A stretch of DNA of 64,000 bases from a virus (taxonomy: Duplodnaviria > Heunggongvirae > Uroviricota > Caudoviricetes): IMG/VR virus record IMGVR_UViG_3300045988_152430. One strand, 5' to 3'. Below the pieces are notes generated by a model, which searched no databases, was not told the DNA's origin, and saw nothing but the letters and a program-made list of their open reading frames with translations. The position numbers and the translations under genes are program-made. Shown here one piece after another: positions 41,525 to 46,328 of this stretch; positions within the stretch are counted from its first letter, which is position 1; every line of letters starts with the position of its first letter.

Positions 41525-42934
41525 TTAACCTATTGCTACTGGTTTTAACAAACCAGCATCAAGTAGCTTGCGAGTTAACCACTGCTGGCCTTTACCCGTT
41601 AATTGGGGCGTCAGCCGTATCTGGTAGCCATTTTCATCATCCAGCACCACTTCTTTCACCGTGAAATACCCGGCGTTAATGTACTGCTGGCGCGGTACGT
41701 TTTTGCGCGCACCAAAAGCCATGAGAATGCCGTTCTGGCGCAACCATGAGAAAAGGGCGTTTTGCTTAAGTCCAACGACCTTTGCAAAGTTCCCGATCAG
41801 GATTCCATTAGCCGCTGATACCCGGTCGGCAAAATCGACTTTAGGGGCTGCGGCCACCAGCTGTTGATTTAGCTGGTGGGTTTTCTGTTCCAGTAGCTGC
41901 TTTTGTTCAGCCAGCTCGGCAGCCAGGCGCAGAGCTTCGGGAAGCGTCTGGGGGATTGCGACCGGTTGCTGTTCTTTTTGCCGGAAGTAGCTGTCTTCCA
42001 GTTTTTCAAAGAATGCCCACGCTTGCTCTGTGTCTACGATCTTAGACATGCGTGCCGCTCCGCGTTCGGTCCAGAGTATTAAGGATCTGGTCTTGGGGGA
42101 AATTTGCAACTCGCTAAAAGATAGTCGCAAACTTTTTATCTCATCTCCTTTGATTTTAAAGAAGTGTTTACCCTCTACAAATCGTTCTTCATTGCGATTG
42201 TAGTTCTGCTGAATACGAGTAGGTGTAGTGCCATACCCTCTAGCAAGAGTCTCGGTTGTCACGACGCGTACTCCCTGCCATTCCAGAACGGGAATTTCAT
42301 CAGGATGATTTTCAACATTTATAGGTTCCAATGCCTGAATCATGGTATGTAGCGAACGGCGGACCGCTTTTGACTCGCGCGCGGCAACTCGCAGGGCTTG
42401 TTTGTAGGTCATGGTTATGACAACCATAGGCGTACCGCCACCTGGCGGCACGGTTGCACTTTTTGTGTAACCGTCCTCACCTTCTAATTCGTCGAGTATT
42501 TTTTCGATGAATTTGTTGTTCCGAACCTCTGGTTCCCCACATAACTTACGCGCTTCATTGACCATCTTTAACAGTGTCTGGCTGTCGATTGTGTCTCCAG
42601 TGTTGGAGATAACATTCACAGCTGGTGATGGCGTAGCTGAAGCAACAGGTGCTGTTTTTTCAACATTTAAATTATTACCGGTCATTCTATGTGCCTCCTT
42701 TCTCATTTCTGCTGCCACTGTTGCGTAACGTAGACGTCCTTGTTCAATCAAATAATCCCTGATCTCGGCTATCAGTAGCCTGTTGATCACAGCCTTATCT
42801 GTTCGGGTATAAAAACGTCTGGTTATCATGAAATAGTTAGCAATTGCGCCGGGGATCTCCCGTGTCGGCATACAGGCAGTATGCAAGGCGATCGCTTCGG
42901 CTATTTCATTACGGGTGACGAGAGGTGTTTTCAT
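41525..42934 (-). CDS. ant1: Antirepressor Ant (Bro-N-like region plus KilA-C/Ant C-terminal domain)
   Basis: 469-aa ORF whose ATG overlaps the stop of the small upstream icd-like ORF (ATGA); C-terminal domain paralogous to KilA. Confidence 0.75.
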   Translation of the reverse strand: MKTPLVTRNEIAEAIALHTACMPTREIPGAIANYFMITRRFYTRTDKAVINRLLIAEIRDYLIEQGRLRYATVAAEMRKEAHRMTGNNLNVEKTAPVASATPSPAVNVISNTGDTIDSQTLLKMVNEARKLCGEPEVRNNKFIEKILDELEGEDGYTKSATVPPGGGTPMVVITMTYKQALRVAARESKAVRRSLHTMIQALEPINVENHPDEIPVLEWQGVRVVTTETLARGYGTTPTRIQQNYNRNEERFVEGKHFFKIKGDEIKSLRLSFSELQISPKTRSLILWTERGAARMSKIVDTEQAWAFFEKLEDSYFRQKEQQPVAIPQTLPEALRLAAELAEQKQLLEQKTHQLNQQLVAAAPKVDFADRVSAANGILIGNFAKVVGLKQNALFSWLRQNGILMAFGARKNVPRQQYINAGYFTVKEVVLDDENGYQIRLTPQLTGKGQQWLTRKLLDAGLLKPVAIG

Positions 42935-43184: not shown

Positions 43185-43300
43185 TACCGCGTGAGGTTCC
43201 AATCTCAATGGCGGTAGCACTGACTGGGTTGGAACTACCGGCGCAAAAGGGAACCGGCCTGCCTTTCGGCAGCCCAGCCAGCACTACCATTGATCTCGGA
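43185..43300 (-). ncRNA. c4: Probable c4-type antisense repressor RNA region (approximate)
   Basis: ORF-free leader between the upstream operator and icd with several perfect stems (gctaccgc..gcggtagc, cggtag..ctaccg, ctgcc-tttc-ggcag); placement from P1 immI organisation; exact ends not determined. Confidence 0.3.
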
Positions 43301-43486
43301 GCTATGTGCTACGTATGGTTGTGCGATGGCATGACACAAAAAAAGACGCTTTTGGCGTCTATGTCGCCTTTTGCATTATCCGGGGTTCCAATCCCGGCAT
43401 CCGTTTTACTAAGATGCCTGTTTAGGATAAACCGAAAATGCATTAGCACGCAAGCAAGTTAATGTAGCATATGAAGCTAAAAAAAT

Positions 43487-43503
43487 AAAATAATTAGAGC
43501 AAC
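43487..43503 (-). promoter_or_regulatory. Weak C1-repressor-type operator upstream of the c4-icd-ant unit
   Basis: 14/17 match (GTTGCTCTAATTATTTT on minus strand). Confidence 0.4.
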
Positions 43504-43571
43504 TTGCAACCATGTAAATTATTTCTCTGGTAACTAAAATGTATGAGTTTAATTGATATGGGTCAAAGATT

Positions 43572-43600
43572 TTGACCATTGCATGGTGAAACTTTATGCT
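43572..43600 (+). promoter_or_regulatory. Sigma70-like promoter of the AT-rich cassette (TTGACC-17-TATGCT)
   Basis: Consensus -35, 17-bp spacer and 4/6 -10, about 50 nt upstream of the 43650 start. Confidence 0.5.
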
Positions 43601-43649
43601 ACAAAATGTTATTTTAAGGCGTTTTATCTGTGGCAGGAGATAGTTAATC

Positions 43650-44000
43650 ATGTCATCTGAACATGTTCGTAAAGGTGTAACAAATGCGAAATTCAATGAA
43701 GAGCAATCTAATATTCTCTTTATTGAAATAGGAATTCTGTCAATACTGATAGGTTTAATGTCTAAATCATGGTGGGCCTTTGGCGGTTCTTTTCTTGGAC
43801 TGATTTTTAGTTTAAGAATAAAATTTCTAGCAATACCATTGATGATTGTATTTAGCTTAGTATGGGGAGCTATTGGCTATAGTATTGGTACTTTGTTTGA
43901 ATCAACAGCAGCAAGTATTGTTTTGGGGGTAATTGCTTTCCTGAGTGGTTTGGGTACTCATTTTGCTGCCGTGCAATGGGCAAATGATATTGCAGAATAA
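43650..44000 (+). CDS. Small integral membrane protein (116 aa, three predicted TM helices)
   Basis: AT-rich ORF; hydrophobic segments ILFIEIGILSILIGLM, LGLIFSLRIKFLAIPLMIVFSLVWGAIGYSIG, ASIVLGVIAFLSGL. Confidence 0.55.
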   Translation: MSSEHVRKGVTNAKFNEEQSNILFIEIGILSILIGLMSKSWWAFGGSFLGLIFSLRIKFLAIPLMIVFSLVWGAIGYSIGTLFESTAASIVLGVIAFLSGLGTHFAAVQWANDIAE

Positions 44001-44022
44001 TTACAGATAAGAAGCGAAAAGA

Positions 44023-44499
44023 ATGAATATGAGATGGTTTTTATTATTTGTATCGTTAGTTTCAGCAGGAACATTTGCAAAAATTGATCCTCTACAATGG
44101 AATGTAATTGAAGAGAGAGGGGGGAGAGAATATACAATCCATAATCATAATGGTGATAAGATAAGTTTTTTATGTGATATGGGATTCATGTATGGTTCAC
44201 CAGATAGTGCAGGTAGTTTAGGCTTGTTGCTAAGTTCGTCGAATAATAAAAAAGAGTATAATGCTGACAAGAATAAAATAGTATTAACTATAGATGGTGA
44301 TCAATATCCTTTTAGCAATCTTGGATCAATGGTTGGAGATTCTTGGTGGTATGCCTTTTGGCAAGATGCAGCAGATTCAAATGCTAATATGATTGATGCT
44401 TATGTTGATAATGAAAAAATTGCTACATTCCCTCTTTCTGGGCTAAGTAAGTTGTATCAACAAGCCAAAATGGATGGATGTATTAAACGAGGCAAATGA
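44023..44499 (+). CDS. Secreted/periplasmic protein (158 aa) with cleavable signal peptide
   Basis: MNMRWFLLFVSLVSAGTFA then a polar mature domain with Trp cluster (DSWWYAFWQD); AT-rich. Confidence 0.6.
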   Translation: MNMRWFLLFVSLVSAGTFAKIDPLQWNVIEERGGREYTIHNHNGDKISFLCDMGFMYGSPDSAGSLGLLLSSSNNKKEYNADKNKIVLTIDGDQYPFSNLGSMVGDSWWYAFWQDAADSNANMIDAYVDNEKIATFPLSGLSKLYQQAKMDGCIKRGK

Positions 44500-44573
44500 T
44501 CTTTCTGTGTTAAAGATTAACGCAATCAATAAAACATTGGTTGCGTAATATTCTATTATAGAAATGGAATAAT

Positions 44574-45608
44574 ATGACAAAAATTACTAATTCTAATGAG
44601 TTGAAGTTGCTGTATAAACAGTCAGTGCTCATTCCATCATACAAAGATCACGTAGCGATCTTGCAAAAACAATTAGGAATAGAAAAACATTCTTTTCAAA
44701 ATATGCCAAGATTGAATAGACAAGCTGTAATTAGTAACTCTCTTCGAAAACAATTGGCTAGTATACCGAACTTGGCTGGAATAGGCAGCAAGTATCGTGA
44801 ACATATCGCGATTTTACAGAAACAGACTCAGGCTCTTTTCCCTCATGATGCAAATAGATATATTCAAATGCTAAGGAAACAGGCCGAAATAGCTATGCCA
44901 TTACGAAAACAGCTTGAGGTGCTTAATAAGCAAGCTGGTTTAAATAACATGCAAGCGATACTTAAAGAATTACAACAAAGTGCAAGTTATAAAATAGATG
45001 TAAGCCAAGACATAAAGAAAGTACTAGATCACTATGCTAGAACAAGAAATGCTTCATTACATCAAATAATAGAGCAGGGGATTTCATCTATTGCGCAGGC
45101 TTATGCTGAAGGTGCTACTGAAACATCACACACCAAAAGTAATGTTCAAAATAAAGGATTAAATAAACCTAGCTCAAAGTTTGTTGATTCATTTAAAGAG
45201 CTTCCTTATCCACTGCAATGGTTACTAATGGTTATATTTTCTCAAGTTGTGTTTGGTGCTTTTATTGATTACGGAAAAGAGAAAACCTTGCTGGGAATAC
45301 ACAAGGCAGAATCATATTTTATATCTCTGTTTGAGGATAAACCAATATCAAAACAACAATTAATTAAAGAAAACAAAGAAATTAGTTGGGAAGATCTCAA
45401 TGGTTTTCGTTTTATAACTGGTGAGAACGTAAGATTACACGTCAGTCCTTCTATAAATAGTGAGGTGATTGAATGCATTGGCAAAAATACTATAGTGGCT
45501 GTTTTAGATAAAAAAGATCGCCAATGGCTTTTCGTGCAGGTTAAATCAGGGGACGAGTTTATTACTGGATGGATTACACGAACATACACAAAGCCTCTTA
45601 AGGCTTGA
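44574..45608 (+). CDS. Repeat-containing membrane-anchored protein with C-terminal SH3b-like domain (344 aa)
   Basis: N-terminal degenerate tandem repeats (HVAILQKQLG / HIAILQKQTQ / YIQMLRKQAE / PLRKQLEVLNKQ), one TM helix (LQWLLMVIFSQVVFGAFIDYG), C-terminal RFITGENVRLHVSPS...GWITRTYTKP resembling bacterial SH3. Confidence 0.6.
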   Translation: MTKITNSNELKLLYKQSVLIPSYKDHVAILQKQLGIEKHSFQNMPRLNRQAVISNSLRKQLASIPNLAGIGSKYREHIAILQKQTQALFPHDANRYIQMLRKQAEIAMPLRKQLEVLNKQAGLNNMQAILKELQQSASYKIDVSQDIKKVLDHYARTRNASLHQIIEQGISSIAQAYAEGATETSHTKSNVQNKGLNKPSSKFVDSFKELPYPLQWLLMVIFSQVVFGAFIDYGKEKTLLGIHKAESYFISLFEDKPISKQQLIKENKEISWEDLNGFRFITGENVRLHVSPSINSEVIECIGKNTIVAVLDKKDRQWLFVQVKSGDEFITGWITRTYTKPLKA

Positions 45609-45709
45609 ATTTTATCACCGTATCTTGGGGCTGGGTGTTGATGACGATGTGCTACTTGAAGTACTTGGGTTTTTTAACGCAGCATCTGAAATGTGTAGAC
45701 TGACCGGTA

Positions 45710-45730
45710 ACAAATGACAACTCGTAGAAT
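45710..45730 (+). promoter_or_regulatory. Late-promoter-type element (ACAAATGACA-N5-TAGAAT)
   Basis: Motif and spacing as in the other late operons; followed by an 11-bp inverted repeat (ctcgtagaatc / gattctacgag) and the 45762 start. Confidence 0.55.
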
Positions 45731-45737
45731 CGGGTAA

Positions 45738-46328
<591 letters not shown>

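What the first reader, a model, noticed from the sequence alone, without database searches (positions are those of the whole stretch)
44574..45608. Repeat-rich SH3b protein with an unusual membrane-anchored architecture
The 344-aa product has at least four degenerate copies of a roughly 12-residue motif built around ILQKQ/LRKQ in its N-terminal half, a single central TM helix, and a C-terminal segment resembling a bacterial SH3 (peptidoglycan or protein binding) domain. That combination is not typical of known phage lysis or exclusion proteins and could be a sensor or adaptor.
Basis: seen in the sequence. Interest (0 to 1): 0.5.

Follow-up and report, generated by a model that had tools for sequence, protein, structure and literature searches.

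The report
Repeat-bearing, membrane-anchored SH3b prophage cargo protein
A P1-like plasmid prophage carries, in the slot where phage P1 keeps its superinfection-exclusion genes, an uncharacterised inner-membrane protein with a fast-changing repeat array facing the cytoplasm and a conserved cell-wall-binding SH3 domain facing the periplasm; it is a reasonable but untested candidate for a new envelope-level anti-phage gene.

Summary
ORF 44574-45608 (+) encodes 344 aa with four parts.
- Eight degenerate L-x-[K/R]-Q repeat units lie in aa 9-135, against 0.64 expected by shuffling.
- There is one hydrophobic helix, aa 213-231.
- A helical stalk follows.

The window is a P1-like phage-plasmid. The gene lies in a 34% GC island that fills the simABC slot of P1, between c4/icd/ant and the late promoter LPsit. 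It is absent from all 50,697 deposited phage genomes searched, so it is cargo rather than a virion gene.

It belongs to an unnamed family found on mobile elements. The TM-stalk-SH3b module is conserved (dN/dS about 0.1). The N-terminal part is a tandem-repeat array that differs completely between lineages, is swapped by intragenic recombination, and varies in copy number within species. Relatives sit next to Septu, PD-Lambda-5, gop-beta-cII and restriction-modification genes.

The best reading is a peptidoglycan-tethered bitopic protein, N-terminus in the cytoplasm, acting in phage exclusion or defence. The architecture is well supported. The function is inferred from position and neighbours only. 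No known defence family, Sim protein or literature report matches it.

The parts
44574..45608 (+). CDS, 344 aa plus stop: repeat-TM-SH3b protein. PHROG 7086; identical plasmid records annotate the CDS at this position as WP_023352812, 'SH3 domain-containing protein'.
44598..44978 (+). aa 9-135: cytoplasmic array of 8 degenerate helical repeat units with core L-x-[K/R]-Q. Includes H[VI]AILQKQ twice.
   Evidence: the region is helical in the low-confidence full-length model
44979..45188 (+). aa 136-205: non-repeat helical 'neck' between the repeats and the membrane. Conserved within the close family.
45192..45206 (+). aa 207-211: FKELP, the juxtamembrane F-[KR]-x-L-P motif conserved across the wider family.
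45210..45266 (+). aa 213-231: the single transmembrane helix.
45267..45404 (+). aa 232-277: predicted periplasmic stalk. The TM helix continues to aa 253, followed by two short helices.
45405..45596 (+). aa 278-341: SH3b (SH3_3) beta-barrel, the putative peptidoglycan-binding anchor. R279, W318, G332 and W333 are invariant.
44023..44499 (+). Upstream neighbour: 158-aa secreted protein (signal peptide seen by eye). PHROG 3429; one RefSeq record names one of the two upstream CDSs 'YfjT/YkfB family', which I take to be this one. A 29%-identical homologue precedes the divergent SH3 alleles too.
43650..44000 (+). First gene of the island: 116-aa protein with 3-4 hydrophobic segments (by eye). PHROG 15014.
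43572..43600 (+). Sigma-70-like promoter candidate (TTGACC-17-TATGCT) upstream of the three-gene island. Consensus match only.
43487..43503 (-). C1-operator-like site (3 mismatches) at the position of Oc4 of P1. Marks the left, conserved border of the slot.
44520..44546 (+). 11-bp-stem hairpin between gene 2 and the SH3 gene. A possible attenuator or terminator; function not shown.
45711..45730 (+). Late promoter LPsit, placed by 98% identity to the annotated P7 sequence. Marks the right border of the slot. The SH3 gene lies upstream of it and so outside the late tail operon.

Best explanation
The gene is accessory cargo (a 'moron') of a P1-like plasmid prophage. It sits in the variable, low-GC slot where P1 carries its superimmunity genes simABC.

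Its product is a bitopic inner-membrane protein with the N-terminus in the cytoplasm. The parts are:
- about 205 cytoplasmic residues: eight degenerate short helical repeats plus a helical neck;
- one TM helix;
- a periplasmic helical stalk of about 45 residues;
- a C-terminal SH3b domain of the type that tethers peptidoglycan hydrolases to the cell wall.

I infer that the SH3b domain fixes the protein to peptidoglycan, or to another periplasmic ligand. I infer that the repeat array is a multivalent and rapidly exchangeable interaction module.

The most likely job is to protect the lysogen against other phages at or near the envelope. That could be superinfection exclusion or a single-gene defence that senses or blocks events at the cell wall and inner membrane.

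Shown here: the anatomy, the SH3b fold, the slot, the cargo status, the family-wide architecture, the module swapping and the copy-number polymorphism.

Inferred: the topology (positive-inside counts, cold-shock-domain fusions), peptidoglycan binding, expression in the lysogen, and the anti-phage function.
For: Anatomy: see the observation check.

Slot:
- The window is 100% identical to P1-like plasmids such as pSBF22b.
- The three + strand genes at 43650-45608 have 32-37% GC against about 47% in the flanks.
- They lie between c4/icd/ant and LPsit-pmgC, exactly where P1 has simA-simB-simC and P7 has upf50.5/upf50.0.
- simABC is a published variable, low-GC region of P1-like phage-plasmids (PMC9603915).

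Cargo status:
- There is no tblastn hit in 50,697 phage records.
- 64 PLSDB plasmids carry an allele.
- A sister plasmid holds a DUF4760 gene in its place.

All three island products are envelope proteins: a polytopic membrane protein, a secreted protein and this bitopic protein.

Topology:
- There is no N-terminal hydrophobic segment.
- The N-flank carries more K/R than the C-flank in 26 relatives, against 5 with the reverse.
- Relatives P0218 and P0219 carry a cytoplasmic cold-shock domain in place of the repeats.

Selection:
- dN/dS is 0.35-0.6 in the N-terminal half and 0.08-0.2 in SH3.
- Alleles L011 and L012 are DNA-identical over the last 139 codons but have dS = 0.84 in the N-terminal half, which indicates intragenic recombination.

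Family:
- About 40 distant relatives keep TM-stalk-SH3b at the C-terminus, each with a different N-terminal tandem repeat.
- Copy number is polymorphic within species: Pectobacterium atrosepticum has 10, 9, 5 or 3 copies of a 24-aa unit, and Klebsiella pneumoniae has 7, 5, 4 or 2 copies of a 29-aa unit.

Neighbourhoods:
- The K. pneumoniae homologue lies about 2 kb from Septu PtuA/PtuB (1e-152, 7e-33) and about 5.5 kb from PD-Lambda-5_A (1e-249).
- A metagenomic homologue shares its contig with gop-beta-cII.
- Other homologues lie next to Fic plus a type III restriction-modification system, umuDC plus a methyltransferase plus a PLD nuclease, and recombinases and IS elements.
Against: - There is no functional data of any kind.
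- There is no match to any PADLOC model and no similarity to SimC.
- The protein has no recognisable effector, enzymatic or pore-forming domain.
- The defence-island association rests on about eleven neighbourhoods inspected by eye, not on a statistical enrichment. Two of them look like ordinary chromosomal contexts: two-component genes and glycoside hydrolases.
- Expression in the lysogen is assumed from position. The promoter is only a consensus match, and such matches were fewer than in shuffles.
- The full-length structure model is poor (pLDDT 43), so the fold of the repeat half is unknown.
- SH3b domains can bind ligands other than peptidoglycan.
- Whether a 45-residue stalk can reach the sacculus is untested.
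Confidence: 0.4

Rival explanations
1. Peptidoglycan-anchored scaffold or landmark protein, working like HubP/FimV or the SPOR proteins DamX and FtsN. The SH3b domain pins the protein to the wall, possibly at poles or septa. The cytoplasmic repeat array recruits host or prophage proteins, for example for plasmid-prophage positioning or for modulating division or morphology. There would be no direct anti-phage role.
For: The logic matches the architecture: a wall-binding domain, one TM helix and a cytoplasmic array of variable repeats. The host element is a plasmid prophage that must be partitioned, and it encodes the division inhibitor Icd next door. Some relatives lie in ordinary chromosomal contexts.
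Against: The gene is absent from P1, P7 and most P1-like plasmids, which are stably maintained without it. The repeat sequences are unrelated between lineages, which is hard to reconcile with a conserved client protein. The gene is mostly found in mobile or defence islands. No LysM, SPOR or FimV domain was found.
Confidence: 0.2
2. Transmembrane damage sensor with abortive infection. The SH3b domain monitors the wall, and local peptidoglycan cleavage by an incoming phage transglycosylase (such as P1 Sit) or by an endolysin releases or re-orients it. The cytoplasmic amphipathic repeats then act as the effector, for example by perturbing the membrane, or as a signal to a host factor. This is a mechanistic variant of the defence idea and is closest to the first reader's 'sensor'.
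For: The same context evidence as the main explanation applies. The wall-binding domain and the cytoplasmic module are joined by one long continuous helix, aa 212-253. The N-terminal half is mildly more amphipathic than shuffles (z = 2.3).
Against: There is no effector domain and no partner gene conserved across lineages. Single-TM proteins transmit conformational signals poorly unless they oligomerise, and oligomerisation was not tested. The amphipathicity signal is weak.
Confidence: 0.15
3. Phage lysis, lysis-timing or virion-assembly accessory, because the gene sits directly upstream of the tail genes pmgC, tub, pmgB and sit.
For: The gene is adjacent to the late tail operon, and SH3b domains are common in endolysins.
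Against: It lies upstream of the late promoter LPsit and so outside that operon. It has a foreign GC content. It is absent from every sequenced phage in the collection, including P1, P7 and D6. It has no catalytic domain. Homologues occur in non-phage islands.
Confidence: 0.05
4. Decaying or non-functional ORF whose 'repeats' are compositional noise.
For: Fixed-period repetition is not significant in this particular allele (z = 1.6). The Pfam score is just under the cut-off.
Against: Purifying selection acts on both halves: dN/dS is 0.35-0.6 in the N-terminal half and 0.08-0.2 in SH3. Intact alleles occur in 64 plasmids. The motif is enriched with P < 5e-5. The SH3b model is confident.
Confidence: 0.03

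Closest known systems
Bacterial SH3b / SH3_3 (PF08239) cell-wall-binding domains of NlpC/P60 peptidases and endolysins (e.g. PDB 3pvq, 3h41, 4krt)
   Different: There is no hydrolase domain. The SH3b domain is held on an inner-membrane anchor behind a cytoplasmic repeat array. Ligand specificity is unknown.
P1 SimA/SimB/SimC superimmunity (superinfection exclusion) locus
   Same: Same genomic slot and orientation between Oc4/c4 and LPsit-pmgC. Both are low-GC cargo and both encode envelope-directed products.
   Different: There is no sequence similarity to SimC. By my own knowledge, SimC is a signal-peptide-processed periplasmic protein, whereas this protein has no signal peptide and is membrane-anchored.
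HubP / FimV polar hub proteins (from my own knowledge; not compared by sequence here)
   Same: Same design logic: a peptidoglycan-binding domain in the periplasm, one TM helix, and a cytoplasmic array of imperfect repeats whose number and sequence vary between species.
   Different: The order is reversed (here repeats are N-terminal and the wall domain C-terminal). The wall domain is SH3b rather than LysM. No FimV C-terminal domain is present. This protein is much smaller and is carried on mobile elements. No homology was detected.
SPOR-domain bitopic division proteins DamX and FtsN (from my own knowledge)
   Same: Same topology: N-terminal cytoplasmic region, one TM helix, a periplasmic linker and a C-terminal peptidoglycan-binding domain.
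   Different: The wall domain is SH3b rather than SPOR. This is a non-core, mobile gene with repeat arrays. No SPOR hit was found.
E. coli YgiM (SH3_4/DUF1202 family)
   Same: It has a bacterial SH3 domain. From my own knowledge it also has a single membrane anchor. Some short metagenomic relatives are labelled YgiM-like by JGI.
   Different: From my own knowledge, YgiM has a signal peptide, an N-terminal SH3 domain and a C-terminal anchor, which is the opposite order, and it has no repeat array.
PHROG 7086 and PHROG 23259 (prophage protein families of unknown function)
   Same: Full-length match to PHROG 7086 (E = 4.7e-184). The TM-SH3b module also matches PHROG 23259 (E = 1.1e-9).
   Different: Neither family has a described function, so membership adds no mechanism.

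Membership tests
Pfam SH3_3 (PF08239), bacterial SH3 domain | HMM match at or above the gathering score (27.0 bits) | tested here: inconclusive
   The window protein scores 26.0 bits with E = 1.1e-5, 1 bit under the cut-off. The identical database protein P0001 carries a precomputed PF08239.18 hit. All 45 relatives scanned hit SH3_3 at E up to 0.01, with a best E of 6.3e-13.
Pfam SH3_3 (PF08239), bacterial SH3 domain | SH3-like five-to-seven-stranded beta-barrel fold | tested here: met
Pfam SH3_3 (PF08239), bacterial SH3 domain | Binding to peptidoglycan or a cell-wall ligand | not testable with these tools
   This needs a sacculus or muropeptide binding assay with purified aa 255-344.
P1 Sim (SimC) superimmunity proteins | Sequence homology to SimC | tested here: not met
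   BLASTP best E = 2.2 over 19 residues.
P1 Sim (SimC) superimmunity proteins | Location between Oc4/c4 and LPsit-pmgC, transcribed towards pmgC | tested here: met
P1 Sim (SimC) superimmunity proteins | Blocks superinfecting P1 after adsorption | not testable with these tools
   This needs plating, adsorption and DNA-entry assays.
Known anti-phage defence systems (PADLOC-DB 2.0) | Match to any defence protein model | tested here: not met
   No family matched at E <= 1 for this protein or for its two upstream neighbours.
HubP/FimV polar hubs | Periplasmic LysM domain and FimV C-terminal domain | tested here: not met
   The Pfam scan of the protein and of 45 relatives finds only SH3 families in common.
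SPOR-domain bitopic proteins (DamX, FtsN) | C-terminal SPOR domain | tested here: not met
   No SPOR hit was found; the C-terminal domain is SH3b.
PHROG 7086 | Full-length profile match | tested here: met
   E = 4.7e-184; aa 20-344 align to profile positions 32-355 of 355.
Proposed 'repeat-TM-SH3b' architecture family (unnamed) | F-[KR]-x-L-P motif, single TM helix, stalk of about 45-50 aa and an SH3b domain ending the protein, preceded by a variable N-terminal region that is usually tandem repeats | tested here: met
   phmmer with aa 196-344 finds 365 proteins at E <= 1e-3. About 40 of the best 150 cover the whole module at their C-terminus. A TM helix lies 104-128 aa from the C-terminus in 36 of 45. 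Tandem repeats with z > 4 occur in 35 of 65.

The most novel reading that the evidence does not exclude
The 'repeat-TM-SH3b' proteins are a new class of single-gene, peptidoglycan-tethered anti-phage or exclusion factors carried by prophages, phage-plasmids and defence islands of Enterobacterales and other Proteobacteria. In this reading the conserved periplasmic SH3b anchor is constant. The cytoplasmic tandem-repeat array is the specificity module, a multivalent bait or decoy for phage proteins. It diversifies by unit turnover, copy-number change and intragenic recombination, analogous to variable-repeat recognition modules in other immune systems.
Probability: 0.15. Interest if true: 0.75.

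Novelty: new variant of a known kind. Interest (0 to 1): 0.5.

Why it matters
The sim slot of P1-like phage-plasmids is a recognised hotspot for lysogenic-conversion cargo, and these elements are common in clinical E. coli. An unannotated envelope protein there is a direct candidate for shaping phage susceptibility, for example in phage therapy or transduction.

The family also shows an unusual evolutionary pattern. A strongly conserved wall anchor is joined to a cytoplasmic repeat array that is replaced between lineages and varies in copy number between strains. That pattern is typical of molecules in a conflict or under contingency selection.

If the anti-phage role is confirmed, it would add a single-gene, envelope-based system that current defence finders do not detect. 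If it is not, the family is still an uncharacterised type of peptidoglycan-tethered inner-membrane scaffold.

Tried and rejected
- **Full-length AF2 with the 26-sequence family alignment:** pLDDT 43, unusable beyond secondary structure. I re-ran only the C-terminal module.
- **Foldseek against afdb50:** the library was not available.
- **Sequence searches of solved structures:** the module profile and the N-terminal half both gave no hits.
- **PADLOC and NCBIfam on the three island proteins:** nothing.
- **Low-scoring Pfam hits in the N-terminal half** (COG3_C, Baculo_gp41, RHH_1, PHROG Arc-like): all are far below their cut-offs and lie in Q/K-rich helices, so I rejected them as noise.
- **SimC homology:** rejected.
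- **P7 upf50.5/upf50.0 as homologues of the upstream genes of the divergent alleles:** rejected.
- **Profile search of the 5.8-billion-protein set with the module alignment:** it returned only short proteins (<= 263 aa) and few names. Taxonomy came from cluster look-ups instead.
- **Literature searches** for the accessions, PHROG numbers and 'SH3 + transmembrane + anti-phage': nothing relevant. Phage-plasmid papers only document the variable sim region.
- **Positive selection on the repeat half:** not supported overall, since pairwise dN/dS is 0.35-0.6. The pattern is relaxed constraint plus recombination. Site-level tests were not run.
- **Obligate partnership with the upstream YfjT-like gene:** rejected. 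The Citrobacter, Salmonella, Yersinia, Klebsiella and Pectobacterium homologues lack it, and the YfjT-like gene occurs without the SH3 gene.

Full report
**1. The observation**

ORF 44574..45608 on the + strand encodes 344 aa, and the complementary strand is closed in that frame.

(i) Repeats.
- The core [LIM]-x-[KR]-Q occurs eight times in aa 1-205, at aa 13, 30, 47, 57, 81, 100, 110 and 117.
- The mean over 20,000 shuffles was 0.64, the maximum was 5, and no shuffle reached 8.
- Aligned on the core, the units read phi-x-phi-L-x-[KR]-Q-phi-x-phi.
- The best off-diagonal self-alignment scores 95, against a shuffle mean of 40.5 and maximum of 65.
- The octapeptide H[VI]AILQKQ recurs at aa 26-33 and 77-84.
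- Spacing is irregular (7-24 aa), so a fixed period is not significant in this allele (z = 1.6).

(ii) TM helix. There is one Kyte-Doolittle peak, aa 213-231, with a mean of 1.81.

(iii) SH3 domain.
- Pfam SH3_3 gives E = 1.1e-5 and 26.0 bits, one bit below the cut-off.
- An AF2 model of aa 195-344, built on a 36-sequence alignment, has pLDDT 87. It shows a continuous helix at aa 212-253 and a beta-barrel at aa 278-341.
- Foldseek against PDB and against viral models also ranks SH3b domains of wall hydrolases first.

**2. Where the gene is**

- The neighbours are Ant (ORF6N + KilAC), Icd, PmgC, the tail tube protein, PmgB and a Sit-like transglycosylase/tape-measure protein.
- The region is 100% identical to P1-like plasmid prophages of E. 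coli such as pSBF22b.
- The window holds nine C1-operator-like sites against 0.28 expected.
- Genes 43650-44000, 44023-44499 and 44574-45608 form an island of 32-37% GC in a backbone of about 47%.
- The annotated P1 and P7 genomes show that this slot lies between the C1 operator Oc4/c4-icd-ant on one side and the late promoter LPsit-pmgC on the other. It holds simA-simB-simC in P1 and upf50.5/upf50.0 in P7.
- simABC is one of eight published variable, low-GC regions of P1-like phage-plasmids (PMC9603915).

The slot is modular:
- One sister plasmid keeps the first two genes but has a DUF4760 gene on the other strand in place of the SH3 gene.
- Alleles 67% and 62% identical to the window protein sit in the same slot behind different genes.
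- One of those upstream genes is a 29%-identical homologue of the window's 158-aa secreted protein, which I take to be the YfjT/YkfB-like one.

The SH3 protein has no tblastn match in 50,697 phage records but occurs in 64 PLSDB plasmids. It is therefore dispensable cargo and not part of the virion or lysis machinery. It lies upstream of LPsit, outside the late operon.

**3. The family**

A word-indexed search found 48 clusters, all from Enterobacterales (mostly Enterobacteriaceae, plus Yersinia) and mostly on contigs of about 95 kb. Protein lengths range from 325 to 481 aa.

In their alignment, the last 135 residues or so are highly conserved. This stretch covers the F-K-x-L-P motif, the TM helix, the stalk and SH3. 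The N-terminal half differs in length and sequence and consists of lineage-specific tandem repeats.

An exhaustive phmmer search with aa 196-344 found 365 proteins at E <= 1e-3. About 40 of the best 150 retain the complete module at their extreme C-terminus. Each has a different N-terminal array with a period of 12-56 aa.

The only Pfam families these proteins share are SH3 families: SH3_3 in 45 of 45, plus SH3_4 and SH3_16 in some. Two relatives replace the repeats with a cold-shock domain.

Members occur on chromosomes of Klebsiella, Pectobacterium, Serratia, Proteus, Enterobacter and Brenneria. All are named only 'SH3 domain-containing protein'.

**4. Topology (inferred)**

- There is no signal peptide or other hydrophobic segment.
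- The N-flank of the TM helix carries more K/R than the C-flank in 26 relatives, against 5 with the reverse.
- The N-terminal half of this allele has a net charge of +14.
- The cold-shock-domain fusions argue that the N-terminus is cytoplasmic.

The SH3b domain is therefore predicted to be periplasmic, about 45 residues from the membrane.

**5. Evolution**

Pairwise Nei-Gojobori estimates among six P1-like alleles give dN/dS of 0.35-0.6 for the N-terminal half and 0.08-0.2 for SH3. Both halves are under purifying selection, so the ORF is functional, but constraint differs several-fold.

Alleles L011 and L012 are identical in DNA over the last 139 codons while their N-terminal halves differ with dS = 0.84. 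This is a clear intragenic recombination signature: N-terminal modules are swapped onto a common anchor.

Within single 90%-identity clusters, complete proteins with identical ends differ only in unit number:
- P. atrosepticum has 10, 9, 5 or 3 copies of a 24-aa unit.
- K. pneumoniae has 7, 5, 4 or 2 copies of a 29-aa unit.

**6. Neighbourhoods of relatives**

- Citrobacter and Salmonella phage-plasmids: a lone + strand gene among - strand genes, near a DarB-like giant protein.
- Yersinia: between umuDC and a methyltransferase, with a PLD-family nuclease nearby.
- K. pneumoniae: an island with Septu PtuA/PtuB (1e-152, 7e-33), PD-Lambda-5_A (1e-249), a Dam-like methylase and AcaB.
- P. atrosepticum: between a serine recombinase, an IS110 element and another transposase.
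- Metagenomic contigs with mobile or defence content: Fic plus a type III restriction-modification system, gop-beta-cII, a Y1 transposase and a DNA methylase.
- Metagenomic contigs that look like ordinary chromosome: two-component signalling genes and glycoside hydrolases.

This is suggestive guilt by association, not a statistical test.

**7. Interpretation**

Shown:
- a bitopic architecture with a conserved SH3b anchor and a hypervariable repeat half;
- cargo status in the P1 sim slot;
- a wider mobile family with the same design.

Inferred:
- SH3b binds peptidoglycan, because its nearest structural relatives are wall-binding domains;
- the repeat array is a multivalent cytoplasmic interaction module;
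- the protein protects the lysogen from other phages.

I favour an exclusion or defence role (confidence 0.4) for four reasons:
- the slot is the superimmunity slot;
- all three island products are envelope proteins;
- the evolutionary pattern fits a conflict interface;
- relatives keep company with defence systems.

The rivals are:
- a HubP/FimV- or DamX-like wall-anchored scaffold (0.2);
- a lysis or assembly accessory (0.05);
- a decaying ORF (0.03), which is contradicted.

**8. Comparison with known systems**

At the domain level the protein is a member of SH3_3/SH3b: the fold criterion is met and the HMM score is borderline.

It is not a member of:
- the Sim family (no homology);
- any PADLOC defence family;
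- the LysM/FimV or SPOR families.

It is a member of PHROG 7086, which has no known function. No paper in the searchable library mentions the protein, its accessions or this architecture in an anti-phage context.

**9. Verdict**

The protein is an uncharacterised architectural variant of peptidoglycan-tethered membrane proteins. Its genomic position and evolutionary behaviour make it a good experimental candidate for a prophage-encoded envelope defence, but the function is unproven. Interest 0.5; novelty: new variant of a known kind.

Noticed in passing
L022/L023 (P. atrosepticum) and L020/L021 (K. pneumoniae); proteins P0062, P0236, P0238, P0240 and P0249, P0241, P0253, P0243: Within one species and one 90%-identity cluster, complete homologues differ only in the number of N-terminal repeat units. 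Pectobacterium has 10, 9, 5 or 3 copies of a 24-aa unit. Klebsiella has 7, 5, 4 or 2 copies of a 29-aa unit. This is VNTR-like polymorphism in a coding cytoplasmic domain.
   Followed up: partly
L020 13176-18213: The K. pneumoniae homologue lies in an island with a Septu system (PtuA 1e-152, PtuB 7e-33), PD-Lambda-5_A (1e-249), a Dam-like methyltransferase and an AcaB-like regulator.
   Followed up: partly
L002 6351-7244 (NZ_CP023961), equivalent to window 44574-45608: In a sister P1-like plasmid the same slot position holds a DUF4760 gene on the opposite strand, while the two upstream genes are retained. It has no PADLOC match.
   Followed up: partly
window 44023-44499 and L011 2816-3322: The 158-aa secreted protein just upstream has a 29%-identical homologue (E = 2e-21) in the same position before the divergent SH3 alleles. 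I take it to be the CDS that one RefSeq record names YfjT/YkfB family. It is a possible but non-obligate periplasmic partner.
   Followed up: partly
window 41525-42934 (-): The Ant antirepressor ORF here is 469 aa with ORF6N and KilAC domains, longer than P1/P7 Ant1 (about 347 aa). The annotation of the plasmid that is identical over the queried island (window 43200-45760) calls only a 268-aa CDS and leaves about 600 bp before icd unannotated.
   Followed up: no
window, nine sites including 6563, 22762, 26284, 41430 and 43487: There are nine matches to the P1 C1 operator consensus ATTGCTCTAATAAATTT with up to 3 mismatches, against 0.28 expected. This fits a complete P1-type immunity circuit. 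The site at 43487-43503 corresponds to Oc4.
   Followed up: partly
proteins P0218 and P0219 (metagenomic): These variants of the same TM-stalk-SH3b module carry an N-terminal cold-shock (CspA-like, PF00313) domain instead of repeats. That would be a nucleic-acid-binding domain tethered to the membrane and wall.
   Followed up: no
window 45591-45606: A perfect 6-bp-stem palindrome (AAGCCT CTTA AGGCTT) overlaps the last codons and the stop codon of the SH3 gene. It was reported as terminator-like on both strands.
   Followed up: no
window 44574-45608 versus PHROG 23259: A second PHROG of unknown function (23259) matches only the TM-stalk-SH3b part (aa 200-342, E = 1.1e-9). This indicates that other prophage families share the anchor.
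   Followed up: no
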